Of a DNA stretch of 64,000 nucleotides, positions 16,524-63,695 are shown one piece after another. The DNA is from Lingula anatina (taxonomy: Eukaryota; Animalia; Brachiopoda). The stretch lies in contig CM120645.1 in assembly GCA_051362555.1 (NCBI GenBank), positions 4,650,001 through 4,714,000 on the forward strand. The letters are read 5' to 3'. Within the stretch, counting starts at the first letter, position 1. The number at the start of each line of letters is the position of its first letter. The position numbers and the translations under genes were made by a program. The notes beneath the pieces are model-generated. The model did not search any database and was not told where the DNA came from. It saw only the letters and a program-made list of their open reading frames with translations.

Positions 16524-16575
<52 letters not shown>

Positions 16576-17607: not shown

Positions 17608-20167
17608 TGAAGACTTCTTTTTAAATTTTTTTAAATATTGTCTAGTGTTGTACAAGGATTTTTCATGCAAAGTAAATGGTGTCAGGCGTAAAATATTTCA
17701 GTAGACAGTTATCTACCCATTACGCTTTTGAAAACAAATAATTTAGTTAAGGAAAGACCTGTTTGACGAGGCAATATGGATGGTTTAAGTTACCATATGT
17801 AGTGCACGGGAGTGAAGGGGCTTCCATTTCCATTATGATGCCATAAGAACCTATTGGTATGATACATAAATCCAGATTTTTTGAAATTTTCTTCATTTTT
17901 GAATAAAAGTGGCACATGTAAATATTGATGATGAAAATCACATTTTAAAAAAATCAACATTATATATAAAGAGGCATTTCAACATGCTTTTGTAATAAAA
18001 TTGCTGCTCAGCTGAGACAGAGTGCAAAAATATATGGTTACTGTGAAGGGCTGGACATCTGTTTTAATGCTCAAATTGACATTTGGTTGCAATAAATGCA
18101 CATGATGGAAAATGCAGGCCTTTTGAAAGGTACAAAAATCACAGGGATTTTCAAATATCAGTCAATATTTGTATGGTTTGACATGAGAATTAAATTCTCA
18201 ATTTAGCATTTATATGTGGAAGCAAACTTAACTGCACATTATTCATCATGAAAAATTATACCATATATTTGGCAATAATAACAATTACTATAACACTGAT
18301 ATATCTTCAATTTTTTTATTTGATATCCTTAAGCATAAATGTATATCTTTGTATAATTTACAAACTCCTTTTTGAAAAAAATCATAATAATAATATTGGG
18401 AGATATCTCTGTACAAATCAACTGTACCATGTGCACCAGTCGAGAAATGGGATACTAGGTACCACCAAAAATTAATATAATAATAATTACTCATTAACTT
18501 AGCCAAGCTTAAGAATACATAACATTTTTTGCCCAGTGCTGTGCAGCGTGCTTGGTTTTTTTTTCCCATCAGCTTTATGTACAAGTAATAGCATCAAACA
18601 TCAGTGCTTCTGAAACTAAACCAACCTTAATTATAATAACTAACAATAGAGGGAGTTCAATGCAAGAACAACCCCTCTCTGGTCTTTGATTGGCCAGGCT
18701 GTTCAGACTATAACTAAACTATAGGTGTCAGTCCTATTCAAGATAGGACTTAGTATATACAACAGATCTATCTACAGCATAAGATTGCACAATGGCCAGG
18801 CTACTGCAAACAAGATGCAAAATGAAAGAAAGACAACTTAGTGTTGCTTGGACTATTTACATTAATAAAGAAAAATAAACTGTAACAGACTACAACAAAG
18901 TTGGAGTACTCCAATTTAACAATCAGTTCTTTTTCTAGTTAAAAACAAAAGAAATTAACTATAACAAAATTGCTATCCTTAATTGCTTATAATTTTGGTT
19001 GAACAAACTACTGATCTCAGCAATTTTTCACTTTAATTAATCACCACTGCCATTATCATATCTAACTTTGCTGTACACATGCAATTTACAAAGCATATTC
19101 TTGCATATGTATACCCTTTTTGATTGCTTGCATAACATATGAAACTATCTAATATATGTTACAGATCTCACACAAAATAATCATATTTAAGGTCTTGCCC
19201 TGCAAGCCTTCTTGTCAAGTAACAGATAACATGTAAACAGTTCATGATTATAATAATGACATGGACAGTACATCTTTGTTCGACATATTCTTGGCTCCTC
19301 GTTTACCTGGTTTGTACTTCATTTTCACCAAATTGCCAAAGTAATGATCTGATAATTGTACGTTTGTCATTTTAAATTTCCAGTATGAACTCCTGGAATC
19401 TTTTTTTTATATTTTTTGGCTAGGAAAGTAACACCTTGTAAAACATAAACCTCATGGTTGTGATTTTTTAAAAATAAGTAACTTTTTTTTACCAGCCTTG
19501 ACTTAGAGAACATACTGTTTCCAAACTTGCTTCCAATTTCAATCTCAGATTGAAATGGAAATCATAGTCAAAGAGGAATGACTTCTCAACCTTATATATA
19601 CCTGTTTTACCCCACCTTTGGCATTTTCCTCTATCTTAGATGGCACTGAATGAGATAAGAAGAAAGACGCCCATCCTCAAAGGTTATCACATTTATATTA
19701 TAGAATTGCGTGTGAACCTTGTACATTTTTACATACAGAATTTGAGTAATTGGAAATTTTTGTACTCATGTAAGGAATTTTGTCATGCTCACATTTTCAG
19801 TAACATACAGCTACTTGATGATGGATATTGGCAAAAGCATGAGTGGAAACCTCCTTCGTGTGGAGTTCTATCTTTGCTTTTGACTATGACTTCACTATTT
19901 TGGTACTTCATAGGTTAAAAGTCCATTATGTAGACAGATACTATTGCAGAGGCTCAGCTAACCACCTAAATAATCAGTTACTTTTAAAATTTTAGCAAAC
20001 CGATATGGACCATCATTAACCTTGAGAAGTTGACTACAACAGAAACAACATGTTTGAAACAAACCGTTTGGAACTGTTTCTCCAGTTTTAGAGCAGTGTG
20101 TGACTGATTGTATACCAAAACCATCTAACAACCATGTGAAACCACCCAAAAAATAAATCTTTCATAA

Positions 20168-23100
20168 TTAACCCATATAGTCATGACTGTCCTGTTCATC
20201 GAGACTGAAACTGCTTCGTCTGCTTCCTGTTGGAGAGGACGAGAGCATTGGGTCTCCACTGACAGGCGAAACATCGTCCATGTCTTCAATTCCCATCATG
20301 GGTGCAGCACCATTCATGGACATACAGCCGCCTTGTTCCACAGGTTCCTGTTTGATCTGTAGGGGGAGCTGTGACTGCTTGATGACATCACCAAGTAACT
20401 GTGCATTTGATTGGCTGAGAGCTGGGTTTGAAATACCATGTGACTTCATCATCAGTTCCAGTTGCTAGAAAAGAAACAGAAACTTAAGTTTAAGAGTAAT
20501 GTTTAATGCCATGGAGGCATTTAATTTAAGAAAAAACAACAAGGTTGGGTCTTTAAAATGTCTATAAAGAAAAACAATAAATAATGATTTAAATGACATG
20601 TTCTTCATGATTAGCAACATAAACATCCTCATAACCAAGTATATTTTACAAAATCTATCATCATACTATGACAAACAAACAAAGGGCATGGGTTCCTTTC
20701 ATAATAGGTGCAGAGTATCTCGCAAAAATCTCTCTTTAAGTCTCTAACAAAGTGGCAAGGGATGTCAGACCTGTCAGCTGACATCATCCTTGTCAAGCCC
20801 TATATGTACAAACTCCCAAGGGCAATTTGCCCAAGAGGTAAAGAAAATATGGCAGTGCATTGGAAACTCGAATGTCATTGCCCCTCAAGAACAAATATAT
20901 ATTTTGCTGACACTTCACTGCCCTGGTATACTTAATACCCAGAACCTCCCCCCTCCCTTTCTCCAAGGTTGGACATTAAGATAACAGCCTCGGGAGATAA
21001 CCAAATTTACCCAGAAGTTATAAGTCAGCCAAACTGTTGGTATTATTTCAAAGTAAATCTGTCCGTGTTTAGATTATAATTACACAAATATGTTAATAAA
21101 CATAAATTATCACCTTTTTTAACAGAAAAGGAGAAATAAGGTTACTATAATAAGTCTAGAATCCAAGATACTTTGCATCCTAGAATAAGTATTAATAAGG
21201 TCTGGTCTGTGGTCTCTATTAGTCTATTCAACCACAAAGATGATAAGAGAAAATGTCGCATTGTTCAAAATTTGCAAGTCACCATCACTGGCACAAAAAA
21301 AGAAAAAGCTTGTTTTTCTGATAAGTAGAAAAAAGTCAACAAAACTTTCCCCTGCCAAATTTATCAAGGTCAACACACTTTTGGAATTAATTGATTTTTT
21401 TTTTTTTTTTTTTTTTTTTGGGGGGGGGGGGGCATGTTTAAGCTAATCAAATTAGTTATTAATGCAAGATTAATTCACCATGACTTTCTATCTAAACAAC
21501 TACAAGTTCAAGGATCAAGTGCAAACAATGGATGACTGGCCATGAGTGAAATTGCATCAAACTGAAACAAGAATTATTTGCCAAGAAAGTGGAGTCCTGT
21601 TTCACTTCAGAGTTACTGTCTTTTTTTTTTCCAAATCGTATTTGTACTTTAATGCCAATTACAAACATCCTATTTATACACCCCCTAGCATAGTATCACA
21701 TTCCAGGATTTATACTTATGTCCTTGTATTACTTGCTTACTTGTATCCCTTGCTCATTTAAGTGATAACTATTAAGTCTAAGTAAGCACTTGTCACAAAT
21801 AGTTAACTTCATACATTTTTGTTTTAGTTATTTTTCAAAACAGACAAAAACACCTATTCAAATTACTTCAAAGTCCCAGAGAAGCAATGAATGCATGTTT
21901 AAGTTATTCATGCAAATAATACTTTTGAATATCAGACATCCCCCTACAAAAAACTCTAGTGAGAAAAGATGTAAGCAAATTCCCACAATCCCTCAAAAAC
22001 AAGACCAGGGTTTGATGATTACGATGAAAATGCTTTATCTTACAGAGAAATCTAGTAATTTGTTTCGAAGTGTCAACAAGACAGAGAGAAATGCCCCTGC
22101 CACTGGTGATAACTGAGTAAAGAATGGCCATGTCTAGCTCCCATATCTCATTTGTAACTAACTTATCAATCATTAAGATGTACTTGATAATAATCTTTCT
22201 TGCCAATGTCTACTTGGGGGTCAAGTAATGGACAACCATGAACTTAGATTTATTGACTCCAAAATGGACAATATGGAACTTAGATTTATTGGCTCCACAC
22301 ACAGAAACATGACAAGGTTCCTCTTCCTAACACCTTTTAACTGTCTAAAAAAATTCTTTAACTCTGTATATTATATCATATTTATGAAGTTTTATACCCT
22401 GCTCTGCGAAAAAGAATATTAACATGATAACAATAGATATGTCCCCATCCCTGTATCTTGTGGCATAAGTATATCACCAATATTTCTATTTAACCATATT
22501 ATTTTATCACAACATCTTCAACATTTGAAGCCCAGATACACACGGACCATTGAGAGAGGGTAACTTGCTATATGTGTACAAGTACATGCCAAATATTATC
22601 CAATGTTGAAGGCCATTCAGTTGTTCAACATATAATTTAAAACAGCTGTTGGCAATGTAGCACAAAAGTGAAAAAAACATCTGGTTCTTATCTAGCAAAT
22701 TTAAAAATGTATCAGACAGCCTACATATCTTCTGTTATATATGGTTTCTTGTTGCTATATCTTTACTCGTATCTTTACACTACCTCTCATATACAGATTT
22801 TTTTCTTTTGTATGTACAAATTTATCACGTTGGAGAAAAAACAAAAAAGGGAAAAGAAAAACAAGAACTGACAAAGTCAGCCAAGCTCAAAAGAGAAATT
22901 GACTTTTGGAAACCTATTCTCAATGAAAATGAATAGAAAATCTCAACCCAAAACACTGTCCTATAAATTTCCAAGCAAAACAAGAAAACTACTCACCTGT
23001 ATTCTGAGCATCATTTTTCTGTTTGTGGATTCTAAACTCCGATGTCGCTCCTCCATCATTTTCAACTTCTCATGATCTTTCCGCAACTTGCGAATGTAGT

Positions 23101-26100
23101 CCACCGAGGCCTTGAGGATGGTTCCTTTGTTCTGTCTCATGTCCTTTTCCCTGTAATGAAAATCACTATGAAAGATAAGGTAAAAGTTTTGGGTGGGAAG
23201 AAAGCCCTTTAAATGTTTAAATTTATTCAGAAACTTCTTGATGCAAAGGAACTGCTGGGACAAAAAGTAGGCTAGGATAGGCAGAAACAATTAAAACACT
23301 GAGTTATATTTCGTAAAATGCTTCCTGAACAAATTTTGAAGTTAGAAAAACTCTGGACTTTCTAGAAAACTAGGAAACATTTAAAAAGTCACTGCCCAAG
23401 TGCTTGATACTTACGGGTCACATCCCTTGGGTAGCAGAGTTCCTAGCTCCTTGATTCTATCATTAATGTTGAAGCGCCTCCTTCTTTCAACTGCAACAAG
23501 ACAATATGATAATTAATAACCTCTAAGAAACAATATTTTTAAGTAGAATTTTCTTTATTTCTTTTTCTAAAGTTATGTTGACCCACCTTCCTCTTTATAA
23601 AATATTCATGACATCAATGAGAATTTAAAAAGTATCCATAAGTCCTGTATCTTCTTTTCTAATCTTATCAGATTAATAATTGTCAAATCTGACCCAACTA
23701 AAAACACAGAGTACAACGTAGGTCAGTTTACTTACTGAGATTATGATTGTCTTTCTTCTGTCTTTCTTTGGCCCACATTCTGGCCTCATCCTCATTCAGA
23801 TAGCCTGGCGTCTCCTTCTTCACCAAGATGTCTGCCGGACAAGAGCTGGACGATTTTCCACGAGCTGTTGTGCCCGTGGCTCCATAATATTCATGTGTAT
23901 AGTTAAAGTGAGGTACCTGAAGAGAGTTGCATTTGTGATCAAAAAAATTTTTTTGTATATATTTAATTTTTAATTTATTCATTTTATTTATTTCTTCTGT
24001 GTAACTGGAAAGATCATTTCTATTTTGGTTAGAAAGGTCTGCTTGCTTGCTCTCTCTCTCTCTCTCAAAATTTTACCTAGGGGTTAGATTTCTATGACAT
24101 TTCTCATGTTCGGTCTTTGGGAAGAAAAAGGTCCACTGTTTCAGAAAAAGACCCACCTCCTCCTTGAAATTACTGGCAAGAGGCCAAGCATTATAACTGT
24201 TTACTCATAAAGGACAACTTACTGTTGAGGACATCTGAGTCAGTGTTGGCTCTATGAAGTTCAGGTCACTGTCCATGGAGGGGTCCACTGCCTCAAGGTT
24301 GAGAAAGTCACCCAAAATATCATCTGCCTGAAACACGAAAAATATAAAAATGTCTCAATATTTAGTATGGACTCCTATTTCTGCTCTCTTGTAAAAATAT
24401 AACCAAAGGCTGAAAACGTCATTTAAACAAAAATATATTTTTTACTATCTGTCATTTGTTTTACCATTAAGTGTGAAACTCAATTAAAAAAATCTAGCAA
24501 ATTTGGTTAAAACAAAAATATCTTTTGCCTGAGAGAGATCTGGTCCTTCTACGCATCATTTGTTCTATTCTAATCCTGTTTTGCAGTGCTCTGTTGTTAT
24601 TTGCCCTTTGATCAGTGCCTAATCAGTGTTCATATCTCACCTGTTATTATACAGGACACAGTAAGCACCCTGTTAACCCAGGTAAGTCCACCGTGTTATT
24701 TGTGTACTATATGGCTACTCCATTAGTAGAGAGGTCCACCCCAACGCTCCACCCCCCTCCTAGCTAAGGAAGCTCCACTGCTAATGGACCCTTCATTACA
24801 GACTATCAAAGCAAATTGACTTGCATCTCTTGTCATTAATTACAGTATACCTGACCATTTCAGGAAGCATGTATTGTGTACAGGAATCCTTTAAGTAGAG
24901 GTTTAAATGCTTAACGTCTGGGTGCACAGGCGCCCCTCCCTCCCCCTCTTCCTAAAGGCCCTCCTGCCTGGCTACTCCCTAGATAAGATCTGCTTAATGA
25001 ACCCACTATTGTCCAGACGGTATCTGAGTGGTTCATCTGGACATTGATAAGGTTAACTGTGCCCCATATTTCACTGGGCAGTTAACAATGGAAGACAACA
25101 GACTAGCCCCGAGGGGGGACCAATCAAGTTCACTTTTCAGAAGTCTTTGATTTTTTCTCACAGACTTATCACTTTTGTGCTACCTTGACAATTACAGGTA
25201 TTGTTTTCATCCTATATGTGTCTTCAATGCCAAGATCAAAGAAGTTGAAGGGAATTTCGAAAGAATAATTAATTCAACTTACTGGCTAGAACTGCCAATT
25301 AAAGATAGTTTGTGCTGTTATTTATTTACAATAGCAACTTTTGAGTGCTGCAAGCTCTTAAATGCCTTAATTGACAATAAAGATAAATATCTCAATCTCA
25401 TCTTTATGTTTCTCATCACTCTCCTTGTGAGCAAAGTGACATCAAATCAGATATCTTATGATAATCAGCGTTCAAATCTCTTGGATTAACACCAGTTATA
25501 TATGGCAACTACTCTACCTCAAATATAATACAATATCTATTTATTTGATGAATGCTTTTTCTTTTTCATACTGAACTGACCATTTTACAGACTTTCATTT
25601 TCTTTTGAGTACTTGCACAGCTTTCAAAGATTGACAAATAACTCAATAATATTATGACAACTGTCTCAACTTTTAAATGAGTACAACTAAGAACAAATGA
25701 TGCAAAAAGAGAAGAGTTTCTTCTGAAATAATTTCTCACCTCTGAGACACTGGTACAAGTGCTGCTGACACCTACTGACAAGGGGCTGTCAGGAGCCACT
25801 GGCATGCTGCTACTGTGGAGTTGGTGCCCCGTGTCGTAATGGTGGGTCATCGCAGGCATGGAGTGCGTGCCCAGGTCGTCCTTGGAGTGTGTGATGTAGC
25901 TCTGAATTTGGCGCTTTTGCGTCTGCTGCACATAGTATCTTGTGGGGTTCTCTAGTCTGGTTTTGACCTGCAATTAAAACAGAAATGGTTCATTTCATTT
26001 CCTCAAATTTCTTGTGAAGAATCAGCTTGGTATCTCTGAGACAATGATCCCAAACGCTGCTCCATTCTGCTGAAATAGAAAGACTCTAGTGAAAATAATA

Positions 26101-29100
26101 CTGATAAAAACTTCATGTAAGTCACATGAATGATTTTTCTCCCAAAAACCAATTAAGGTGAAACAGCAATGAAAACATCACAATATAACTGTGAAGTTTT
26201 TTGTCAAAAAGCTCTCAAGGGAAAAAAGTCCACAACTAGTTCAACTTATTTGTGAAGTACTTTGATAAAAGGAAAGCAACAAGAAACCATCATTGTGGGT
26301 CTTGCTGTTATCTATGTCCAGCTTTGAATGACCGTTGAGTTGATATTGACCGAAGAGTATATTTGGGCTATGGGAAAGGAAGTGGGGGTCATCTCTGTCC
26401 TCACATGCCAGCCTTTCAAGCTCAAACAAGGACACTTAAATTATAAATTTTAAAAAAATCCAATCAGTTACAATTATTTTCAGTGACAATCTGAACTCAA
26501 ATTTCTGCAAAAAAAAATCAATTTCACTTCAACAAAAACTTTTGAAGGGCATTCTCATTAATTTTTGAAAAAAAAAAGAGCGCTTAATTTTAAACACTAA
26601 CCTTTTAACAATGGCTAGTCAACCTTATTACCCTATATTAAAGTCCTTGCTCTGGTTCAATCCAACTGACAAATTGCTCCTAATAAGGGTCTTTCACCCA
26701 ACCTAGCATGTCATGACGGGTAAACAAAAATAACATTTGCCGAATCCCAAATTTACTTTAATCAAACCTGATGTGGATTTCTTCATAAAGAAAGTTCAGC
26801 ATGGATTGCGATGTTATGCTGTCAACAAGTTTTCATTTGTTTTTTACCCAGAAATGATTGGCATCTTTGCATGACAATGAACAGCCTAGCTTTGCACAAA
26901 CACGACCTACTCATACGTACAGATTGTTTTTGTTATGTTCATACATTCACCGATAATATATACTTATCAATGAATATATCTAATTATGGGAAAATTTATC
27001 TGATAACTATTGTTTCTGGTCCTAATGTTTCGTGTTGGATTTGAAAAACTGATGATAAAACTTTCCTGATTGGAAGATCAGACCTTTTACACAGGATCAT
27101 GAATCTGATGAGAAAACTGATCTGATTGGACAACAGTGAATGTTTAGAGTTCTATCATATCTACTGGTATCTAGGATATTAATATCAACAAATTTTACAG
27201 TAAATGGCCACTTTAAAAATATTTTGGAAAATATCACATGGCATGACCTTAAAAGTATTTAAAATTAATGGACCATTGAAATACTTTAATATGAATACAA
27301 TACACACTTAAAGACAAACCTACACATATTTTTGAAACTCTAGAATTTAATTCTAGAAAAGTTTTACACGATAAAAAGCTATGGTTTCTGCTGGAAATAA
27401 CTATATGGGATATACAAAAAAGAAAATTCATTTTTGTAACATTTTGTGACAAAGGGTTGCCTTTTTTCTGTCTTCCTATTGTGTTTCCGGGCAAATATGA
27501 CTTGATACCACAAATATAGCAGTCAGCATTAGATTCTGCATGAACAGTGGGAGAGTGCAAAGTCGAACTCTCTCTCAAGGTGAAAGCTCCTACAGAAGGG
27601 AAAACAATATGAACGCCTGTGAGGCCCTGGGATTTCATTAATATTGGTTACAAATACCAGGACACTTCAAAATATATATATCACTACTGCCATCTTGATT
27701 TTAATTCTTTGTAAGTGGGAATTTTTGAAGATCATTTTTCTCTTTTTTTCTCTCTCTTTTTTTCCTTTTTTTCTACAAAATTTACTTTGTAAATCACTTT
27801 TTGAAGCCAAGCCAAAAGACAAAGTTTTATCCTCTTTTTCAGGACGCAGAGAGTTTAATTTCAGTATTACATCTTTACTTCAACAATATTAAACAGAAAA
27901 TCCATTTCCAATCATTTTTTCCTGAAATCATTTTTTTCATCACCTAATTGGTTTACTTTTACTTAAAATAATAAAATAAAATCATCTTCTCTAACCTTGA
28001 GGAAATATTCTACAACCTCATTCCACACTTATTGAAACAAATACAACATCCTTCATAACTGGACACCCGTTCATATGAAACCTGTTCAAACATAACTTTT
28101 TTCTTACCTCATAATTATAACCATAGTACAAATAATCTCTGGGGTCTGCATACGGCGTGCAATATGTCTGCCTACAACTGTAATACTCAGCTCCGTATTC
28201 TGCACTCACAGGCATGCTGTTGTTGTGTTGGATGTTATTGACAGAAAGTTACAAACAAATATCACAAAATCTTGTACCACTTCAAAGGGGCCCGAATGAT
28301 AAATACACCATGGGAAGTCTGTAACCAATGTCACAAGGCCAGCTGCTCTGCTTTCTCTGAACAAGACCTGATATAGTGTCCACTTCCCTCTCTCACTAAG
28401 CCCTGACTGCCTGACTTCTAAAAGTGTGGCCAGCCTCACTTCTTATATCTCAGTATGCCCATTCAACCATTTTATGCAAATTTTGAGGCAGGCTAACAAT
28501 ATGTTTCTGCGCCATGGATGGTTGCTCACGGTTCAAGAATAGAGCTAGTTGGAGTAGTCAGTCCAGCAAATGGTTGTGGTCAGGGAGAGACTTCCATAAT
28601 TATGTCAAAGTTGTGTAACAGGAACCATTCATTAAGGACCTGAGGCCAGGAAGAGTTTATTGTATACCTGGTCACTTAATTCTGGGGATGAACTGCCGTT
28701 CAGAGTTCATTAAAGTTATTTAGTCCCTTTTCTCACCTACTCCTTCTTCCTCTGTGTGTCCTTTCCTTGTCATTTTGTTTTCCCCCCTTTTATTTTACTT
28801 TAGAGACATTCTTGTATTAACAATGACTTAATGAAATTCCACAAAGTCTAAAATCAATTTATTATCCAGCATGTAAAATACATTTATCTTATTTACTGAT
28901 TTAAAGATTTTTTGCCTGATCATTATCAAATATCTGCTAACCATCTTTTTGTCTCTGTAACAATATAATTCATCAAATTAAACAATTTTGTACTAAAAAA
29001 AGGACCCAATCGCGAAATAAATTTCTTCCCATCACTTTCAACAAATAAATCTTTTTCATTGAATAACACTTTTGCTGCCAATTTCCAGTTACACGGTGCA

Positions 29101-32100
29101 ACAAGCTGGCTTCGACTCAGAGGGTGGGAAAGTCTGTCAGCCAGAAGATGGGGACCCAGATAACTAATATCCACCATGTTATTTTACAAGACAGGCTTAT
29201 TGAAGGTTTCCTGTGATGTATGGTAGGCTCACTGCTGCAAGCAATGTTATGCAAGTTCTCAAGGTTTGCTTGCGTTGATTTATTTGGTTTCAGGTTTGAT
29301 AAGTCCAGTTGCAGGGGTTACTAATGGGAAGTGGACATGACATGGTTTTGAACTGTGGAATTTCATGTGTCATAACTTTCTGTCTTTTTTACTCATGTAT
29401 TTATTTTTTTTTAATTTCAAATTAAATTTTAATTGTAAAATTACTTATTTCAAATATAATATATGTCATTAAGCACCCCATAATTCTTATCCCCCAAATT
29501 CTTCTTTATTATTTCTGATCCAAGTATTTTTTCCTAGCCCCCTTCCCCTCACCATCTCTCCCCACCCAATATTAGTAAAAATACTTAAGTACCAGTATCA
29601 GTGAGCAACAAACTATCAGAAAATTCTGAAAATATGCAAGTTCTAATACTGTAAACCCACAATCCACTGATTTTGGTCCAACAGAAAAAGATTTTATCTG
29701 TAAACAGTTTGCAATATCAAACTGATAATCTTTTTTATCTAAATTGTTCAAATTTGTAGAACCAGACCAAAATTATAATCTTTAAAAGGCCTGCTTACAC
29801 CTTTCGTGCCATTATCAAGAGTTATCATGCATCTTCTTTATGTCTTAATTTAATCAATCCCGGCCTGCCTCACTTCTGACTTAGATACTCTAAAGCCCTA
29901 GTTAAACAAAGGTTTGAAATATGATAAATGTTTTTTTTTTCTATTTTCTCTATTTCCTTTTCTTTTTGTCCAAATATTTTATCACAATTATTATGAAAGA
30001 TTATCACTCTCAATTTTAAATTGGCAAGCCATATTTTTGTTTTTGTTTTTTCAAAACAATTACATCAAGTCTAAACCTGCTTTAACATCATCTGTAAACA
30101 ATTTTTTTTCTCTCCCTACTGATCTTTTGCCATTTTTTTCTGATCAACTGCCAAAGCTAACTTAGCAGGGGAAACTGGTGCAACAACGCACTACGACTGC
30201 GACAAAGAGGATGTTTTCTTTTTCTGTCCCTTGTACGATTGTGACACCAGCATCGCTGTGCCTTGAGCGCCAAAATAAGATATAATTTACATTTGACAGA
30301 ATCAGACAGCAAACTTTTATCAGATTAACGAGCAAACAATGCAAAACTGAAAAATATGTTGAAAACCCAGACTGTAAACAATGCATAACCTCCAGCAAAA
30401 CAAAAGTAAAAGTTTAAAATTAAAAGATACACAATCCTATGTATCATTTTCTTTTACTAAGAATTACTTTCCCTTTCCTTTTTCCTTTTTCTAAAATATA
30501 TCCAAAAGAGAAAGGTTCATTTGGCTCCAAATATCTTTACGTCAAAGCCGACAACAATAGTGGAAAAGCCTAACCACTATGATTACTTTTGCTGCCCAAG
30601 GGTTTGGTTTGGGGGCAAAAACTATAGCTGTAATCAAGACTGTTACTTCCTTAATGTCTGTTAACTGGGATACCAATATTTCAACATACTGCTATTATCA
30701 ATATTTTTATTTATATCTATTTATCTTATAATACTGTTTTCCAATCTACTATTTATTTATTTACATATTTCATTTTTGTCAAAGCTCTTGGGTACACTGA
30801 TTGTTAAAGGAACAGTGGCCAACATTTTGGCCTAAAATATCCCATGGATTTGACATTTAGATTGTGTGCTGGATGTTTTTTCCTTGATGCCCAAAGGACA
30901 CTTTACATTTTCCTTTACTAGAAGTCAAAGCAACATACCATAATACATTTCACTTAAAATTTTTAGAATTTCGATTGGTTCCAGTTAATTTTATTGCCAC
31001 AATGAGCCTATGAGCATTACTCTGATTTTATGAAGTTATTATTATTATTATTTTTTATCCCAACTAGGACATTTTCTGAAGAAGATATAGCCTATACTAT
31101 TGCTTGTGAAAACAATGAACAAATTTTAATAACCAATTTTTAAATGTTATTCAACCATTTTCAAGTAAAAGAAAGGAGCAGGCAAAAAAAAAAAAAAATT
31201 ACTAATTTTTTTTCAAAAAATAAAGAACCACAAAATACAATACCTGAACCTAAATATAACCATGCTCTTAATGTCTACACTCCTCATCATTAAACCCATC
31301 ACCCCCTAATCTTCATCCTTAAGGCTGTGCTAGTAATGAGCCCTTTAAGTTAACCGAGGAAGTAGCACACGGCTGTTGTTTTAACTCTCTAGGCAAGTTG
31401 CACTTGGACACTTCATATATTGTATAACACTAACTGTCAAACAACATTTCTACACACCATATCTATGGGAAATCTTTAAAGGTAATAAGTGTGAATTAAT
31501 TACTCCAAAAATTCTTAATTTTTATTACTTATTTAAAGATATTCCTAGGTCCATAAATCCGATTCTGAAAACATGTTAAGGGTTTAAAGTTTAAACCTTC
31601 TGAGAAAATGTGTTATGTGCAAAAGAAAAGTGCATAAGTTGTATAAGAGATAGTGGACAGTAACACAAATCTTAAGCTTTCATCATTTGGTTTTTTGCCT
31701 GTTCAAATATGTACAAACTGATGTGCTGGACATGCTTGTGCATTTTCAGATGGAATCTAATTTGTATGCAAGCTAGTACACATGTACTTCACACGTTTGT
31801 GCATATGCAGAGCAGAATTCCACATTTATGCTTGTTCAAATCTTTCCTTTTATGGATTTTGATAATATTTATATCCATGGATCATTCATCAATAAGCCGA
31901 AATTGCTTTTCACATTAAAACTGTTTGCCAGGTACCAAAACTTTCCACATTAGCACAATAATGCATTGGACTTCACACATCCAATCCATAAAACAAGTTT
32001 TATTTATCATTACAAAACAATAACGAATCACTTCATAACATACTTCGCACTACTTATCAATTCTGAAAAATTTACTAAAAACCGATGTTTTTTTTTTTCA

Positions 32101-35100
32101 AGGTACCACCTGTTTGATTTTTACCTGCAAAACCTGTGGAGGGACCTCTGTGGTTGTGCTACCAGAGTCAGGCATGTTAATGGCGGACGACTGCTCGGAC
32201 CTTGACGGCAACGACTGTGAATATTGCAGCTCCTTGCGATCGAGATCTTGAAGTTGTTGCTTCATGATTAGCTGCTTCATGTTGGCTCGTGTGCTGACGT
32301 GGGCATTTTTAACCTCTGTCGGTGGACTGAAATGAGAAAGAAAGTGAACATCACTAGAAAAGTGCATCTTTCAGAAAAGTGTTAAGAACTTGAAGTACAT
32401 TCATTAAGGCAATAAGGGGTAGTCTGAACAGCCTAAGTTCTTTTTGTTTGTTTTTCCTTGCTTTTTTCCCTTTTTTTCTTTTTTTTTTTTTTTTTTTTTT
32501 GGGGGGGGGGGGGTTAGAAAAACCTGTAAATAGCCATTTTCCTGAAGTCTTATGAATGTTTAACAACCTTTCTTTATCTCACTGCCTACATTTGCCTTTG
32601 TTTCAATCAAGCATTGTTATTAAAATATCCCAAATTTTTTATTTCAGGTTTTTGACTTACATTTTGAGCAAACTCTGGTTTTTGTGGGGTTGGGTGGGTG
32701 AGTGGGTACTAGAGGAGAAATGATGTACCTTGCTTTCCTCATGAATATCCCAAACTGTGATTTAACACTATTCAATTAAATCATCTGTGCAAAATGTGGT
32801 GCAGGTGGTAAAAGGGGCAGAAAGAACAAATCTACCAACTGTTGATTCCTAATTCCCCGATTCCTGCCTGTTGCTACCTGAATGAACCAAAACAGGTGGG
32901 AATACTTGGTCACAGTCTGCTGCCATCAGCTGGCATTTCATACAACAAACACCAAACTTTTATCTCTTTTCCTTCTTGTTCCTATATTTCCATATCAGCA
33001 CCATATTGTCACACTAACACATAATGTTCCACTCTGTCTCTACAGACTTGTTTACTATTTATTTTTCTGTTGGTTTCAAAATTAACAAATACACCTCATT
33101 GACCGACAATTATTACCTAGCTGTATTTTCACCTTCTTTCTGTGCTACCAAACCAAAAGCAAAGATAAATAATAAGAAGATCCTGTGTCAAATGAAACTG
33201 TGCTATTGCTATTGCTATGTACTATTGTTTAAGTTCGTCTTTGTTAATAATGGATAAAACAGAAACCCTCTACTTTTCTTCTTATTTTAAGTTTTATTGG
33301 AAAGCAAACAAAGGTTTCTTTTTCATTCAGTATCATCAAAAACAATGAATAGCATGATAATACTGAGTTGCACCAAATTGAGAATGGTAGTGTTTACAGG
33401 CTTAATTTGGACTAATCTTTGTCTCTTTAAGAGATATGACTACATTTCGAACAGACAAACACTCTGAGCTTGAAGTACTTTCCACATCACACACCAAACT
33501 TTCTTCAGGGGTTTAAACCCAACATGTTATAAATGTACAGTAAAATGTACTAAAAAATAGTCAAGTTTTTGTCCCTGTTATTAAACCTTCTATCATGCGC
33601 TGATGAGTAAATCTTGTTTTTTACAAAACACTCCTTTTTGGAGGCCTACCTGTATTTTATGCAAATTGATATCAAAATTGACCTGTGCAATGCTACATGG
33701 GGAGCAAAGTCCACATTGTGAAAGGGGATGTGAAGAAAAAAGTTGGTCACAATGAGAAGAAATTATAGTTGTAGGTATGACACATCAGATATGTAAACAG
33801 CTGTACCAGATCAGAAAAAAATCGACACTTAATGTTAAATTAAAATATTCTTTTGCAATAAAATATGAAAAGGCAACACACATTCCATATGCTCTCTCCA
33901 AATAGGGCATTTCAAGCATGTATTTCAAATATAGTTCTTGTAAATATATCTTATTGTCCTTTATACCTTTATCAGGATTCTAACAATTTTAAGCATTACA
34001 ACAGTAACATTCAACTTTTAGGACATATAAATGCCACTACTACTGTTGTTAACAAACTCAGCAAGTTTGTAATTTTTTTAAATTGATACACAGCAAGACA
34101 TTTCAGATGAGAACAGTGTCCAATAAGAGTATTCAATGAAAAATAATTTAAAATTTATCACTTTTACTCCATATTAAGTCAATTCAAGTAAAACCTGATA
34201 TCTGCAGGGAGGAAATTAAGTTGCAGATTAAATGCATGAAAAGGAAGCAGATATTGCATTAAACTTCCTTCACAGGTTTAAACAATGACACTACAAAATT
34301 ACTATCACAAATCCCAGACACTTCCTCCAAGTGGACGGTGTTAGTTTCTGGGATTGTTGAGCCATTCAATATCCTTTTTGGTATTCCAATTTCAACCACT
34401 TCAACAGTGATCCGTGATGGGGACAAAAAAAAAAAAAAAAAAAAGATGACACAAACCAAGTTACATATAACTTGCTCTTCATCATATCCTCATCAGAAGC
34501 ATGATCATTAAAACAATTCGGTCCAATTATAAACTGGTTCAGATAAAGCAACTCACAACCCTTTATAAAAATTCAGCCAAAACCCTAACCACAAAGCAAA
34601 CCACACAGAGAAACCATGTTTCTTTTACTAACAAACAGCTGATAAAAGTCTAATCTAATCAAGAAAAGAATTAAATTAATTAATCTTTTGGCCTTAGTAC
34701 TATATACGTTTGCGGTTTTGTGCACTACCTGTATCCTTCTTGCAACAAATACTGTCTCCCACATTCAGCATAGCACCTGGCATTGTAATAACGACTGTAA
34801 TATTCACTGTAACTATAGCCGTAATGTTCACACGGCCCCTGCTGATAGTGACAGTAGTCAATCATTCTCACTGAGTTGGGCTGCCTGCAGCTTTCAAAAA
34901 TTGTTGCAAATGCCTTGATTTTAGTTTGTTAAGCTGCAGAATAATGTTTCTGTCCTGATAACTTTTTGTAAGTTATTTCCACAACTATTTTCACTCAAGA
35001 GATACTTCTCAACTATTCTTCTGTCTTGTGTTTGTTAGTTACTGGCACCAGTGCTCTCTCTCCACCATGAAATCACCAAATTTTTTCCTTATGATTTGTT

Positions 35101-38100
35101 GCATTTCTAAGATCCAAGTAAAATGCCTTTGTTCTCCAGAAAACTTGCAGTCAATATGACAAAAATGCAAGGACAATACTAAAGCTCTTTCTCTTTGAGT
35201 ATTGTGACCATGCCGTAGGAGGAAGTGTGTTTTATTGGAAGCAGAGTTTATATTGTAATTTTGACCCCTGGAAGGACGCCCACTTCTTGCCGAAAGAGGT
35301 GATGTCATCGTTGTACCTTCACTTTTGCCAAGCACCTAAATCACCTCCATCCGTTAAAAATGCAGTTGAAAGTTATACCACATGTTAGAATGAAAACATT
35401 TAGGCACACTTAAAGCCATACTAATTTGTTTTTCATTTTAAGACATATTTTTGATCATTTTTAAAGGACTTTATCAAGTTTCTCTTTTAGAACATTATTT
35501 TCATTTGATTGACACATCCTGTTGACCTAGTTTTCCATATATGTCAACCCCCATTTAACAACCAATAAGGCAGCCCAATCAAAACATATGAACCTCCCCT
35601 ACATCACCATATTTGGGTCATTGATACCATATTTGGAATCCAGCGTGCTGATGGATAAAAGATCAAATCAAGCAATTCTTTGGAGTTGTATGAACTTTTT
35701 GCACATGTATTTTTCTTAAATAGTATTCTCTAAGAGTCAGTGCACAATGCAAGGCTGAATCAATAAAGATAAGGGTAAGTTTTGCTCTCTGACAGAGATG
35801 TATAAATTTAGATGTTCACGACAGCGACAGTTGCTCCGCTGACTAACACTGACCCAGTGTAACTGAGCAGTTTGCTAGAAAGAAAAGTGAGAACTCCAAG
35901 CGATTGCCTGCTAAGCACTAAGAACTATGAACCTGCTTTCCCTTTCTTTTCTTTTCAAATACACTTATTAAAAACCTTCATACAAGGCCTAGAAAAAACT
36001 CTATTGTGCAAACACTATGAACCTGTTTTTGTTTTTTTTTTTCTTTCAGTTTAGCTTATTAAAAAGTTTCATAGCAGCATTAATAAAAAAACCCAAAAAT
36101 TAAAAAAAAAAAAGCAAAAAAGAGAAAAATTGTTCCATTTATCATCTGAGCAATTTTACAGGGGCACCTGCAATATCCAAGGTCATTAGTACTTTTAATT
36201 GGCAAACAATGCTTTTGTGGCCAAAATTTCACTGAACCCTTCCAGGGAGCTTCTGAACCTGGGCATTACAATATCAAATGAGCATGCCTACATGACTTTC
36301 TGTTGAATTCAATGTTCCACTCTGGCAAACAATTCTGCCCATGCAAACTCACTGCTATGGCTGCACAGCCCTCACCTTGCGGCAACGTTGCGAAAACGTG
36401 CAGCTGCCACAAAGGCCAGACTGCGAGATTGAACGACAATGCAATCAAATGTACTGAAGTTGTTTCATGCAATTTGCAAATGGTCCACTGCACAATTTAA
36501 GGACAAATATGTCGATTCATGAAAAGAAATTACCCAGAAAAATACGTATTGCCAGTGCTTGATTCCGATAAAAATGCAGTCACTTATTCATAAACAAAGT
36601 TCTTTTCATATCTCAAAACCCAGTAAGCCCACCCACCCCTAAAATTTTTGTAACAAAAAAAATTTAAAGACTTTAAGGGTTTAAATTACATTAACTTCTA
36701 TCAAAACGAAACCAAATATGAAAATAGCAGAGTCATCACTTTCGTAGCAAAAACCCCCTCCCACACAAGTTTTTTATGCCTACTGACACATTCTGAGTTC
36801 ACTTAGGCAAAACCACAGTAATGTTTAAAACAACAGACACGGGCTACCACCAATTTGACCAAAGTCTTCTTGATTACACTTCTGATAAGTCATGCTTAGG
36901 AGCATAACTTGAAACATCCCTTAGATGTAGCCATGTCAGGCTCCATTTACGTAACAAGATTAGAAATTACCAGAGGTAGAAGAGGTTGGCAGATGCCACT
37001 GGGCTTTAGACGAAATTCTGTGTTGGTTAAGCACACAATTAGGACCTGCAGCTAGTTTTCTTTGTTGTTCATCATTTCATCCATTTTTTTTCACAATTGT
37101 AATTGCAATATTCAGCAGACAGAAATAATTAAGGGATTGGACTCTCATGAGTTTTTTCAAGATGAATGTGTCAAAATGGTAGTAAAAGTCAGAATACGAT
37201 TGACTCTAATTAAAAACAAGGACAAGCGAAGCAGTTCAGTGATGGACTACTTCAAACAAAAGCAAATGATGCCACAAAAAAGAACTACATCTTAACCAAA
37301 TAGCCATACGGTAATAAAATGATAAAAGAAAGAGAGGCATTACCCTTTCCCCCCCAAGGCTAACACAATAAATGCTAAATTTCAAAGAACTTTTTTTACA
37401 ATTAATAGAAGGTGATTTTGTCTGTAATCCTTCAAGTCCCGACAAACTTTTTTTATCAAAGGTTGTATTTTTCTAACCTTTCATGGCCATATAACTGTAC
37501 CGAATGCTTATATATCATAAATTTGTCCTTATCATCAGATTTACAAATTGCTTTACAAATACAATGGTAATCCTTCTCTGACTGACAAGTATTGCCATTT
37601 TTTTCTTTTTAGATGCAATTGAAGTTCTACAAATTATGTGGTTGACATTATAAAAGGCAAGCTACTCAAAAGGAAATTGCTAGGAAAAGAAATCTCCCAA
37701 AGAAATATCAAGTTAAAAATGAATTTTTGTTGTTGTTGTTTTAGAAAAAAACTAAACTTGATAAACTAAGAGTGATCTATTCTTTGTGTTTAATCTGTAC
37801 TTTTCTATTGAAGAAAAAAAATTCATTTTTATATACTTACTTCATTCCGTACTTTTGAACCATTTTCCGGAAATTAAGATCTCACAGGCAAATACATAAA
37901 TATCTATACTGCGAAAATGCGTCCCCTACGTGAACTTTTCTGCTACAGCTATATTCTGAATCATCACATCAAATTCTCCAGATTTGTAATTTCCAATGTC
38001 AATCCTTTCAGCATGTTATTAATTCTAGATTAAATATTTCGGCACAGTCATGGAGAATAGCATCCAGGGCCTCCAAAGTATGCTATTATTTTCCCAGCAA

Positions 38101-41100
38101 AGTTTATATATATATTGCATGGCTCAAAAATCTGCAATGAGTAATTATGCTGGTAGATGAATTAGTCATCTATAAATTCAGAAAAAAATTGACCTGTTGA
38201 AAAAAAATACACTTTGTAGAGAGATGGGACTCCAATCAGGGCATAAATTCAATTCAAACTATTTCACAGACAGACTCGTGCTTATTTGGATGTGGTATTT
38301 TCAGGGCAAGTGACAGGGAGTGGGGCACACAGATTGTGTTCCTGTCTCAACTGGCACAATCTGGGGCTTAAGAGCTCCACACTACTGCAGTCTTGATTTC
38401 TTAAGCTCCTGTGCAATAGATGTTATCCAACCTTGCTTCAATTTAAAAAATAACCATATACTCCTTACTGCGTCAGGCATGCACACATACTTTTCAACAG
38501 ATTTTGTTTTCTTTTTAAAAAGAAATAAAAATTCTCTCTTGCTAAAAGTTTTAGTTTATAATATAAACAAGTAGACAAGTTTCTTACAACTATATGGGTG
38601 GCGAGGCCATACTAGTAGCACTGATGAAAATATTCAACAGTAAATTATCAGTACATGCCTTTTATCTTCTATAAATAACTATGCACGATGCAGTTAATTG
38701 ACTGATATGGTACAGATGGTTTATAATAATATATAACTTATGTGAATTCATTCTCACATGATGATCCCATGTGTCCCCATCTGTCATGGGACACACTACA
38801 CCAACACCCATTGATCATCTACTATAAAACCAATCAAAATTCTGAACCTTTAATTAATAAAATCTATAAACAGATTACCTGTCATTATAAGAAGAAGAAG
38901 ACAGTAATGTGCTCTTGCACTGCATGCACCCTTGGTGTACGTGCTTCCGCTCGTGCCCTTGCGATGTACAAGCAGGGCAATCATTATGCACATGCACCAA
39001 GCGCCTTGTGCTCAGATCGTAATACGTGAGTATCATACTAGGATAAGAGTCTGCACCCGTCCCTACACTCCCCTGGTCTGGTCCGTCCAGCTGTTGGAGA
39101 GATGGGTAATAAGTGTACCCTCCGCCTGGACTTTGTCGGCACAAATACGTCTGACAATACAAACATTGGCACCCACTCACAGAAGAAGCCTCCATTGATA
39201 TATTAGCTAATGAAATCTTTTATCACTTGGGATCAAACCCATACGCCACTATTCTGTCTCCTTATCTTCATCCAATATTGTGCTTGTAAGCTGCCATTGT
39301 GCCATCCAACTGTTATCCTTGTATTGAATGATAAGCAATGACACACAACACTCTATATATATGTAACTGTTTTGTCAATTAAGGCCAGCTTCATTAAAAA
39401 TGAATGTGTTCATTTAGCAGGTTTCATGACATATATTTGTTGGAAAAGCTCTCCATGATTTTCTATGCATAGATTAGGTGAAATAAACTATCTACTTTGT
39501 ACTGTTCTTTCTTAAAATTTAATTCATTATCCTATTCATCATCATTATAATTTCAATATACAATGAGAAACCTTGTTCTTAGGTTCCATTTGTTGAAACA
39601 AAAACAATCTTTCACTATTTTATCTTCAACTTACCACTTAACATTATTAATTTTCATACAGTTTTTGAGTTTCACAAGTATGACATAAAATGTAATTTAG
39701 GCTTCAGAACTTCTGTGCCTATATATCATTAGTTCAGTCTCAATTTGTGATACAACTGTCTCATTATCTCCTCTAACCCAAGGGAGACAAGCGCACGTGT
39801 GAGTGCAGATTAACGGAGGGGTACAGCTTTTGTGAGTGATGGGGACGTCTCCGTTTCACTCTTCATATAGTAAAAGTGCAAAATTCATATTAATCAAAGG
39901 CTACTGCCAAAATTTCATTGCCATGGGAAATTGTCTGGTTGTATTTATCACCTCATGACGAGATCTAGTAAAGATTGGCCACAAGGTATCTTGTGAAGGG
40001 GGTAATGTCAGGCAAAAGATGACAAGAAAAGGCTGAAATCTGTGATTGATCATGTTGCCAAAACCCTCAAAATTATTCTCTGCAAGCCCAAAACACCCCC
40101 CTCTTACCAAAAAAGATTATGTTCTGAATATTGTTAAAATATCATCAAAATGCAAATGACTAACTAAAACACAATCAAGCTAATTGCTTTTTCCATACAC
40201 ATAAATTACCATCTCATTATAACATAGGAAATGTGTTTGGGTGTACGTATCTCACTCCCCCCCCCCCCCAAAAAAAAAAAATCTTGATTCTGAAAAATGC
40301 CCTCTTTTATCAGTTCTCTAAACTAATCACTAATCATTATTCTAGACCATTGCCATCAGATAGTATTTTACCTAATATCAAAAATATAAATCTTTGTCTT
40401 AATGCCAACTAAAATATTTGATTATTCTGAGCCAATTAATTTGATGAAAAGGAGATGTTTGGCTTCTTACAATAAAAAACTGTTCTACAGCCTTGACCCT
40501 GAATGTACAAATTGTTAAAATGTTAGTTTGATTAAATGGAGATTTCAACATTACTGAGTCATAAGATTTACTGGTACTAATTTTCCAAATATAGAGCCCA
40601 TTTTAAAGATACAGAGCAAGTGTTCTATAGAATGACTCAAGGAGCGATACAGCAAATTTTTTCATGTAAAATATCTAAAAATTTTCTCATATGAGTAAAT
40701 GTTAAGAAGTTCTTTGATTAAACTTTTCACTTCTGTTTACCATACTCCTACAGTATGCTTTCTTCAAAATTTCCTGCAACATTTTGGTCAACATTTTGCT
40801 TCCCGTTTAATCTATAGAGAGTCTGTTTTTTTTTCTTTTGTTTGCTTTATAACTACTGTGACATACTTTCCTCCATTCCAAAATTGTGTTAATAGGTAAT
40901 TTTAACTATTTGTTCCAAATATATTTTAGTCAGTCAAACAAGTACCATTCATGTGAACAGTTACATACTGTAGATTATCTATGCACCCACAAACAAACAC
41001 TGCGACAATGACATGCCTGAAGATCACGAATGGCAAGTACAAAATGCTACTTTCTTTTTCAAGCTTTCAAAACAACCTTTTACCACTTTCGTGGAAAACA

Positions 41101-44668: not shown

Positions 44669-46388
44669 GGGGCATTTTAGGCTATTGGCCAGGCATGATG
44701 AGAAAAAAACTTGATTTTCTAGTTTTGTTATGTTCTGTTTTTGTTCCAACTTGCTACGCCAATTTTCTGGAAGGCAGCCAGCATTTTACAGTTGGAGAAT
44801 GCATAATTTCTATTAGAATTTCCGAATTTAGAGATAATTTTGCACCGGAGCTAGAAAATCTGGGGTATTATCTCAGACATGTACGCAGCAGTGGAAAAGA
44901 CAGTTATTTATTTCCCCAATATCACACCCCTTCACCTTCATGGCACAGAGCTTAGACCAAAACTTGACTCAGAATGGACTCCAGCCAAATGGACAGTTCA
45001 TTCACCCACTGCCCCCTCCCTCCCCCCCTCCACCTAATACCCTGTATCTATGTCTAGACTCTGGAATTACTTTGTGGACAGTGGAGGTAATATTTCATGA
45101 TCTCTCACATGCTGTACCCCCTAGAGGAGGATACATTGCTTAGCCATACTTTGACATTTTGACACCCTCAGTTTTCTTATATATAATCCCTTAGTGAACT
45201 ACTGCAATGCAGGCTACAAGCTATTATTCAATTTCTACAAATCACGGACCAGATCATGATACAGAAACATCCTGTAACTTATAAACTGCCTCTTTGACAA
45301 TAAGTCTTTCGTCACTTTATCAGTAGTTATATTACAACAGAATGCAAAAAATCCAAACCAGAAATGTATTTCTTATCAACTGTCCTGCATTAAACATTAT
45401 AAACAACTCACCATCTATTACTCTTCACATGCATCTTAGAATGAACCATCCTCTTCAGACCCCAGTATATATTTGCTTTTACTGTCTTAAATTAACCTAG
45501 ACCAGAAACATATAGGCACCAGTGCCATGTAGAGCTGCTAAATGTATAGTTAGAGCATTGGTTTAACAGTAACCAAAGATAGAAGTGGAAGGGGGGAGTT
45601 TCCCCCTGATAACGATGTTATTAATTAGGTTAGGGGGAGGGGCAACGCATTCGTGTTGCACCGTGGTACCATAACCTTAGCACACATTAACGAGCTGACT
45701 TTAAACAAGCAAGATAAAGGTGTAGTTACAGCTACTGTATTAACAAATAACCGGCCAGTGTTTTTCCATTATTTACAAAGTATGAGATAACGATACATGG
45801 TCCAGCGTGAGCGTCCACATGGGTCCAGTTGGCCACACGTGCGCCTGAACGAGACCTGGAGGTCTTTGAACTAGGTGCGCCTAACGCAAATACACCAGGT
45901 CAACGTTTACCCATGTTGTCAGTAACTGTTAACTGTATTAAGGTTCACTATAATATCAATGTTATCACCTTATTACGACAACCACGGCTTTGACGCCCCC
46001 CTTCAAGGACTGTTGACGCTGGCTCCGTCTCAGCCTCTGCGTAAAAACTTTTCCAACCATTTTCACAGAACTTGTCACCACAAACTGGAAAAGGTGCTTC
46101 TCCTAGACTCGCTTTTCTTTATAAAGCCTTAGATAAGTTGACCCAAAGACTTAGCCATCTTACCTAACACGACCCATTGGGTCGAAAACGACACCATTTT
46201 GTAAGAACTCGGAAGTAGGTCAGAGCTCTCGATACGAAATCAACAAAAATCTTGTCGACATACCTGGATACGACGGGGACAGAACTTTTCAGCTCATAGA
46301 AACTACCGGTAAGGAAATCGTCTTTCTCTTGATCCATCAGGCTGCTGAAGTCAATACCAGAATCGTACTCAAGACTGGGCTCATTCAT
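20168..46388 (-). CDS. MITF: MiT/TFE-family bHLH-leucine zipper transcription factor (MITF/TFE3/TFEB orthologue); 8 coding exons, about 455 aa
   Basis: Exons (minus): 46388-46264, 32326-32125, 25967-25740, 24327-24223, 23916-23736, 23490-23415, 23150-22997, 20464-20168. All introns are GT-AG with consistent phases (1368 nt). Diagnostic motifs: [97 protein letters not shown]. Confidence 0.96.
28108..28215 (-). CDS. MITF: Candidate alternative first coding exon of MITF (36 aa, phase 0, MITF-M-like position)
   Basis: ATG at 28215, [36 protein letters not shown], then strong donor GAG|GTAAGA. In frame with the VKTRLENPT exon (acceptor 25967). Confidence 0.55.
38879..39195 (-). CDS. MITF: Candidate alternative first coding exon of MITF (105 aa, Cys/His-rich, phase 2)
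   Basis: 317-nt open frame from ATG, GC-richer than the surrounding intron. It ends at donor CAG|GTAATC in phase 2, the phase needed by the exon-2 acceptor at 32326. TATATATA lies about 160 nt upstream. Confidence 0.55.
42612..42646. repeat. (CA)n microsatellite
   Basis: Directly visible. Confidence 0.95.
42730..43066. mobile_element. Kolobok-like MITE (about 337 bp), copy 1, in MITF intron 1
   Basis: TTAA flanks (42726-42729, 43067-43070), TIR AG(C/G)(A/G)ATAATAACTCTT...AAGAGTTATTATCCCT, and a near-identical second copy at 62181-62516. Confidence 0.88.
44597..44662. repeat. (TA)n microsatellite
   Basis: Directly visible. Confidence 0.95.

Positions 46389-56388: not shown

Positions 56389-63695
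<7,307 letters not shown>

What the first reader, a model, noticed from the sequence alone, without database searches (positions are those of the whole stretch)
28108..28450. Candidate invertebrate 'MITF-M-like' isoform from an internal first exon
Seen: inside MITF intron 2 there is an ATG-initiated 36-codon Tyr-rich frame ending ...YYGYNYE at a strong phase-0 donor (GAG|GTAAGA), with TATAAGA about 230 nt upstream. It would join directly to the VKTRLENPT exon. Established: vertebrate melanocyte MITF-M uses a short exon 1M (ending ..EYNHYQ) spliced to the homologous VQTHLENPT exon. It lacks the Rag-GTPase-binding N-terminus and is largely constitutively nuclear. Inference: this animal may make an mTORC1-uncoupled, possibly pigment-cell, isoform by the same architecture, which is usually regarded as a vertebrate feature.
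Basis: partly seen in the sequence, partly recalled or inferred. Interest (0 to 1): 0.8.

Follow-up and report, generated by a model that had tools for sequence, protein, structure and literature searches.

The report
Brachiopod MITF-M-like short isoform
A lamp shell (brachiopod) splices an extra tyrosine-rich first exon inside its MITF/TFEB gene, giving an mRNA for a short form cut at the same point as vertebrate pigment-cell MITF-M; this form would likely escape nutrient (Rag/mTORC1) control and likely evolved independently, and the cell type that uses it is unknown.

Summary
The window is the MiT/TFE gene of Lingula anatina. ATG 28215 opens 36 codons (10 Tyr) that end at GAG|GTAAGA (28108), in phase with the VKTRLENPT exon. 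The joint 28108->25967 is read in 1 of 4 RNA runs laid: 4 reads against 9 canonical there, 0 against 75 in the other three. The isoform already exists as an automatic RefSeq model, XP_023933076.1 (X7). It drops the exon carrying the Rag-binding segment and starts at Pfam PF15951 position 60, exactly as vertebrate MITF-M does. Its peptide does not resemble exon 1M. None of 147 other stored invertebrate MiT proteins has this layout, so convergence is most likely. Tyr-rich first exons do recur in lophotrochozoans, but upstream of exon 2. Lingula has one there too (X3), and its first 8 residues match exon 1M: a weak, post-hoc lead. Nuclear location, mTORC1 escape, the start site and a pigment-cell role are untested.

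The parts
28108..28215 (-). Coding part of the internal alternative first exon (36 codons, 28% Tyr); N-terminus of RefSeq isoform X7
   Evidence: RNA joint
28102..28107 (-). Phase-0 splice donor GTAAGA
   Evidence: used in 4 reads of run X1
25968..28107 (-). 2140-nt intron removed in the short isoform (CT..AC on +, i.e. GT..AG)
   Evidence: table 5
28441..28447 (-). TATAAGA, candidate core promoter element, function untested
28282..28311 (-). 9-codon upstream ORF in the same frame; it would lie in the 5' UTR if transcription starts near the TATAAGA
   Evidence: role inferred
32125..32326 (-). Exon 2, homologue of vertebrate exon 1B1b; carries the segment that aligns with the Rag-binding residues; absent from the short isoform
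25740..25967 (-). Exon 3 (VKTRLENPT...), common acceptor of exon 2 and of the internal exon; holds the S73-equivalent serine
20168..24327 (-). Common exons 4-8 (24327-24223, 23916-23736, 23490-23415, 23165 or 23150-22997, 20464-20168): SCPA site, bHLH-zipper, C-terminus
34729..34865 (-). Second Tyr/Cys-rich alternative first exon (RefSeq X3), phase 2, upstream of exon 2; its first 8 residues resemble vertebrate exon 1M
   Evidence: (joint in X4 1 read, X7 6 reads)
46264..46388 (-). Main first exon, MITF-A-like (RefSeq X4)
   Evidence: loose ends at 32329 in all 4 runs match its end
38879..39195 (-). Unannotated 105-codon Cys/Tyr-containing ATG frame ending at a phase-2 donor; possible further first exon, no joint seen
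   Evidence: 5 of 100 shuffles give such a frame; no joint; no Pfam match

Best explanation
Lingula's MiT/TFE gene splices a Tyr-rich exon inside intron 2 directly to exon 3; this exon is likely a first exon with its own regulated promoter, its product lacks the Rag-binding exon and would likely stay mostly nuclear regardless of nutrients, as MITF-M does, and it likely arose independently of vertebrate exon 1M. Shown: the splice, the frame, the loss of exon 2, and the retention of the bHLH-zipper, the S73-equivalent and the SCPA serine. Inferred from vertebrate work: without the exon-2 segment the protein is not brought to lysosomal mTORC1, so it is not phosphorylated for 14-3-3 retention. Inferred: use is restricted to some samples or cell types. 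Weakly inferred: the exon is a copy of an older lophotrochozoan Tyr-rich first exon that normally sits upstream of exon 2, moved one intron down. Speculative: the Tyr-rich peptide adds a low-complexity activation or phosphorylation surface. The cell type is unknown; pigment cells are one possibility only.
For: Joint 28108->25967 in 4 reads with 4 starts, correct strand, run X1; there it is 4 of 13 joints into exon 3 (95% interval 9-61%), against 0 of 8, 0 of 27 and 0 of 40 in X2, X4, X7 (Fisher p 3e-4 pooled). RefSeq X7 is the same model. No joint into the exon from upstream was listed, and an in-frame stop lies 12 codons before the ATG. PF15951 matches from profile position 60 in both X7 and porpoise MITF-M, and from position 1 in Lingula X3 and X4 and frog MITF-A. 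Tyr 28% against at most 14% in 178 chance frames. Exon 1M alone skips 1B1b, 1B1b mediates Rag binding, and MITF-M is predominantly nuclear (PMC6672050, passages; PMC3575543, passages). Invertebrate Mitf/HLH-30 are regulated like TFEB (PMC7815692, passages). For independence: no similarity to exon 1M; 0 of 147 other stored invertebrate proteins with the exon-3 start have this layout, amphioxus and hemichordates included. Tyr-rich first exons upstream of exon 2 occur in Lineus, oysters, Capitella and locus L075; X7 against the Lineus exon is reached by 24 and 18 of 3000 shuffles.
Against: Only 4 reads in 1 run. Only 4 of 9 listed runs were laid, at about 6% or 25% of each. X1 against X2, the same study, is not significant (p 0.13). 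Run X7 is a diverged population (most reads 90-99% alike), so its reads on this exon may have been lost. The 5' end is unmapped: X1 depth is 2.46 over 27968-28631 but still 0.96 over 28632-29295, similar to its other introns. In Lingula exon 2 the S3-R4 and Q10-L11 positions read T-R and L-I, so Rag binding by the long forms is itself unproven. The S69-equivalent is Val. No homologue of the exon peptide was found. Absence in other species rests on gene models and transcript contigs, not on intron scans. X7-X3 similarity is not significant (protein 373-1531 of 3000; DNA 33 of 500), and the Lineus match is the best of many pairs (summed test 245 of 3000).
Confidence: 0.62

Rival explanations
1. 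The isoform is real, but the point is the extra promoter: it only adds MiT protein in some cells, and the short and long forms behave alike because Lingula's long forms are not Rag-controlled or nuclear entry is set by other sites.
For: Lingula reads L-I at the Q10-L11 positions, where 8 of 10 other proteins printed read Q-L. The gene has at least six first exons. [quoted passage not shown]
Against: R4 and the surrounding helix are kept (PF15951 1-149). This is the only Lingula first exon that skips exon 2. Its unusual Tyr content suggests the peptide matters.
Confidence: 0.15
2. A minor or leaky intronic start with an opportunistic donor, of no selected function.
For: The frame and donor arise in 58 of 300 shuffles. 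0 joints in 3 of 4 runs. No CpG-rich promoter signature (observed/expected 0.26 and 0.20 there, against 0.7-1.1 around exon 1A). No homologue found.
Against: 4 of 13 joints in X1 is not a trace level. RefSeq built the same model. Tyr 28% is outside all 178 chance frames. The X3 exon, which is spliced in 2 runs, also lacks a CpG signature (0.39 and 0.32).
Confidence: 0.13
3. Deep homology: vertebrate exon 1M and the Lingula exons descend from one Tyr-rich alternative first exon of the bilaterian MiT gene, which moved or was copied across exon 2.
For: The first 8 residues of Lingula X3 match exon 1M at 5 or 6 positions, Met on Met (5, 2 and 0 of 3000 shuffles for mammal, fish and frog), the best of 104 distinct invertebrate N-termini. 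The Tyr-rich frame of L075 shares 4 residues with 1M (40 of 3000).
Against: Found post hoc; p about 0.002 over 104 peptides is about 0.2. X3 lies in another intron and another phase (2 against 0). One matching residue is changed (His to Gln) in 20 of 20 reads of run X7. The exon at the 1M position (X7) does not resemble 1M. The summed score of 1M against the seven other Tyr-rich exons is ordinary (904 of 3000). No such exon appears in the stored amphioxus or hemichordate isoforms.
Confidence: 0.07

Closest known systems
Vertebrate MITF-M (exon 1M)
   Same: Own short exon in the intron after the Rag-binding exon, phase-0 join to the V.T.LENPT exon, identical truncation point (PF15951 position 60), bHLH-zipper and S73-equivalent kept.
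   Different: 36 residues against 11; no significant similarity; S69-equivalent is Val; no neural crest in brachiopods (own knowledge); promoter, tissue and localisation unknown.
RefSeq XP_023933076.1, MITF isoform X7, Lingula anatina
   Same: The very same protein.
   Different: An automatic model; no functional or evolutionary reading of it was found in the paper searches.
Tyr-rich alternative first exons of lophotrochozoan MiT genes (Lingula X3, Lineus X3, oyster X2/X3, Capitella, locus L075)
   Same: Short ATG exon with 14-28% Tyr; one nominal match of X7 to the Lineus exon.
   Different: In the protein models these precede exon 2 and keep the Rag-binding segment; only Lingula X7 lies after exon 2.
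TFEC and MITF isoforms 5 and 6
   Same: MiT proteins without homology to the Rag-binding N-terminus of TFEB (PMC3575543, passage).
   Different: Vertebrate paralogue or isoforms; their exon layout was not compared here.

Membership tests
MiT/TFE transcription factors | PF15951 N-terminal region plus bHLH-zipper | tested here: met
   (PF15951 E 5e-08, PF00010 E 8e-14 for X7); alignment
MITF-M isoform | Separate exon spliced directly to the V.T.LENPT exon, skipping the 1B1b-type exon | tested here: met
   joint; RefSeq X7
MITF-M isoform | Lacks the segment holding the Rag-binding residues | tested here: met
MITF-M isoform | Conserved 11-residue exon-1M peptide | tested here: not met
   514, 1770 and 1481 of 3000 shuffles reach the score
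MITF-M isoform | Own transcription start (true first exon) | tested here: inconclusive
   no upstream joint listed and an in-frame stop before the ATG, but no 5' ends mapped
MITF-M isoform | Melanocyte-type promoter inputs (SOX, TCF/LEF, CRE; factor list recalled) | tested here: inconclusive
   1 TCF-like, 3 SOX-like and 0 CRE matches in 685 nt, against 0.8, 1.7 and 0.05 expected
MITF-M isoform | Pigment-cell-restricted expression | not testable with these tools
   tissues of the runs are not given
MITF-M isoform | Predominantly nuclear, mTORC1-independent localisation | not testable with these tools
   needs a cell assay
MITF-M isoform | S69/S73 export switch | tested here: not met
   S73-equivalent kept, S69-equivalent is Val
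Lophotrochozoan Tyr-rich first exons | Sequence homology beyond composition | tested here: inconclusive
   X7-Lineus 24 and 18 of 3000; the other six pairs not significant; summed 245 of 3000

The most novel reading that the evidence does not exclude
The Rag-free MITF-M design is older than vertebrates: a Tyr-rich alternative first exon existed in the bilaterian MiT gene, vertebrate exon 1M descends from it, and Lingula keeps both the ancestral copy (X3, with a 1M-like start) and a copy moved behind the Rag exon (X7) that serves pigment cells.
Probability: 0.07. Interest if true: 0.8.

Novelty: new variant of a known kind. Interest (0 to 1): 0.42.

Why it matters
MITF-M frees a lysosome and nutrient sensor from mTORC1 control and turns it into a lineage factor. 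An invertebrate that reached the same cut point independently would show this is a repeatable route opened by the ancient phase-0 intron after the Rag exon. It also gives a direct test (X4 against X7 localisation, and where X7 is expressed) of whether nutrient-uncoupled MiT forms go with pigment cells outside vertebrates. Mitf does drive tyrosinase genes in abalone (PMC13544226, passages), so the pigment idea is plausible but untouched here. The limits: the transcript is already an automatic database model, it is seen in one species, and no function is shown.

Tried and rejected
No whole genome is held for this window, so no paralogue search. No RNA holder was listed by the index; nine raw-read RNA runs came by species label; four were laid and five were not seen. 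The exon-3 search found only the Lingula protein, 1 of 18 candidates. The 65-residue read-through frame of the exon shares three 5-residue words with no protein of 35-114 residues. Among 150 best representatives no alignment begins before query residue 18. Of 137 new ones, 98 hold the exon-3 start; three unnamed ones (P0291, P0283, P0297) have an unrelated peptide before it and could not be judged; two carry the vertebrate 1M peptide. In three unnamed genomic loci with both exon 2 and exon 3 (L075, L056, L046), no phase-0 frame in intron 2 stood out as Tyr-rich, apart from a (GT)n repeat. Cassette-exon reading rejected: in-frame stop 12 codons upstream, and the only AG noted between it and the ATG lacks a pyrimidine tract and shifts the frame. 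X7-X3 duplication not shown. CpG content does not mark this promoter. The synonymous table had a wrong exon-4 boundary and was redone. The protein atlas gave no answer. The scan's earlier findings held nothing. No fold or complex was run: a 36-residue low-complexity peptide would not give a usable model.

Full report
Identity. Exon 3 (25967-25740, - strand) is 100% identical to a protein named 'transcription factor EC isoform X2 [Lingula anatina]'. Its cluster has 8 members, of which 7 were read, all RefSeq isoforms X1-X7. All seven map onto the window, with first coding exons at 52066 (X1/X2), 46388 (X4, MITF-A-like), 45449 (X5), 37863 (X6), 34865 (X3) and 28215 (X7). All but X7 run through exon 2 (32326-32125).

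Observation. ATG 28215 has A at -3, opens 36 codons with 10 Tyr and 2 Cys, and ends at GAG|GTAAGA in phase 0. Joined to exons 3-8 it gives RefSeq X7, XP_023933076.1, exactly. TATAAGA lies at 28447-28441, 232 nt upstream; a 9-codon upstream ORF lies between. The frame and donor alone occur in 58 of 300 shuffles of the intron. Tyr at 28% occurs in 0 of 178 chance frames (mean 3%, maximum 14%).

RNA. Nine RNA runs were listed and four were laid on 20000-39900, at about 6% (X1, X2, X4) or 25% (X7) of each run. The joint 28108->25967 (2140 nt, GT..AG) appears in X1: 4 reads, 4 starts, up to 58 letters on the short side, on the gene's strand. The canonical joint 32125->25967 has 9, 8, 27 and 40 reads in X1, X2, X4 and X7. 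So the internal exon feeds 4 of 13 joints in X1 (9-61%) and 0 of 75 elsewhere (p 3e-4 pooled; p 0.13 for X1 against X2 alone). X7 is a diverged population, which may hide its reads. No joint into the exon from upstream was listed (threshold 3 reads). The start site is not mapped: X1 depth is 2.46 at 27968-28631, 0 just downstream and 0.96 at 28632-29295, the last like its other introns. Tissues are not given.

Domain logic. PF15951 matches from profile position 60 in X7 and in porpoise MITF-M, and from position 1 in X3, X4 and frog MITF-A. In vertebrates exon 1M alone is spliced past exon 1B1b, 1B1b mediates Rag binding and mTORC1 phosphorylation with 14-3-3 retention, and MITF-M is predominantly nuclear (PMC6672050, passages). 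The Rag-binding residues are S3-R4 and Q10-L11 of TFEB, also present in long MITF isoforms (PMC3575543, passages). Lingula exon 2 reads T-R and L-I there, so Rag control of the long forms is likely but unproven. X7 keeps the S73-equivalent and the SCPA serine (recalled as the 14-3-3 site) and has Val at the S69-equivalent. Escape from mTORC1 is therefore an inference from loss of the docking exon.

Homology or convergence. The X7 peptide does not resemble exon 1M (514, 1770 and 1481 of 3000 shuffles). Of 244 proteins stored, 209 hold the exon-3 start, and only X7 and 12 vertebrate M forms lack exon 2. Of 182 non-Lingula proteins that I classed as invertebrate, 147 hold the exon-3 start and none has a new exon joined to it; two flagged by the pattern still contain exon 2. 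These come from the best 120 of 3029 hits and 20 clusters (up to 15 members listed each), include redundant isoforms, and are gene models, so absence is soft. The representatives search added three unnamed oddities that could not be judged. No homologue of the exon peptide was found.

A wider pattern. Tyr-rich first exons (12% Tyr or more) upstream of exon 2 occur in Lingula X3, Lineus, four oysters and Capitella, and as a frame in the unnamed locus L075, which shares a short C-terminal motif with the Capitella exon (45 of 3000). Lingula X3 is spliced to exon 2 in X4 (1 read) and X7 (6 reads), and 4 of its 7 listed coding differences in run X7 are synonymous, against 16 of 21 in the common exons (only 40 of 152 differences were shown). 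X7 resembles the Lineus exon nominally (24 and 18 of 3000) and X3 only weakly (DNA 33 of 500, protein not significant). A copy of this exon class moved behind exon 2 is the simplest origin for X7, but it is not shown.

The odd match. The first 8 residues of X3, not X7, match exon 1M at 5 or 6 positions (5, 2 and 0 of 3000), the best of 104 invertebrate N-termini. It was noticed post hoc, weakens to about p 0.2 over 104 peptides, lies in another intron and phase, and one matching residue differs in all 20 reads of run X7. It is kept as a lead for deep homology at about 7%.

Literature. Ten searches (listings and abstract starts) and passages of six papers (PMC6672050, PMC3575543, PMC7815692, PMC13544226, PMC9363479, PMC3677685) showed no description of an invertebrate MITF-M-type isoform. 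Searches returned no papers. Most subscription journals are not held, one targeted paper was not held, and no supplements were read. I found no passage stating that the M layout is vertebrate-only; that is my own knowledge and agrees with the sequence survey.

Verdict. A real spliced isoform with the MITF-M layout, already an automatic RefSeq model, not a member of the exon-1M family by sequence, most likely convergent, likely uncoupled from Rag/mTORC1, with cell type and function untested. Novelty: new variant of a known kind. Interest 0.42.

Noticed in passing
window 34729-34865 (-): Second Tyr/Cys-rich first exon (RefSeq X3), spliced to exon 2 in two runs; its first 8 residues resemble vertebrate exon 1M.
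   Followed up: yes
window 38879-39195 (-): Unannotated 105-codon Cys/Tyr-containing ATG frame with a phase-2 donor in frame with exon 2; 5 of 100 shuffles give one; no RNA joint seen.
   Followed up: partly
window 23150/23165 (-): Two acceptors of exon 7 add or omit 5 residues in the HLH loop; both are used in X1, X4 and X7. A centipede and a fish TFE3 protein have insertions at the same loop.
   Followed up: partly
window 51737-52066 (-): X1/X2 first exon carries a 'TVIVV..LLRSLLK' motif also seen in long first exons of several molluscs, suggesting another conserved first-exon class.
   Followed up: no
window 24126-24165: Loose read ends in X1 and X2 point to an insertion or replacement allele in intron 4.
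   Followed up: no
window about 12900-17600 (+): Coiled-coil gene convergent with the MiT gene (CEP83-like by recall; Pfam gives only weak coiled-coil hits).
   Followed up: partly
window 56392-56994 and 63385-63708 (-): Frames with weak matches to PF16769 (MCM3AP/GANP), E 0.008 and 0.012, in the right order for an upstream GANP gene.
   Followed up: partly
window about 6700-8900: Head-to-tail repeat with a unit of about 438 nt, seen as recurring frames; similar sequence near 59700-60200.
   Followed up: no
L075 3906-4103: Tyr-rich ATG frame upstream of exon 2 in an unnamed MiT locus, sharing a short motif with the Capitella N-terminus.
   Followed up: partly
P0291: Unnamed MiT protein with a 20-residue unrelated peptide joined to exon 3; either another M-type form or a gene-model error.
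   Followed up: no
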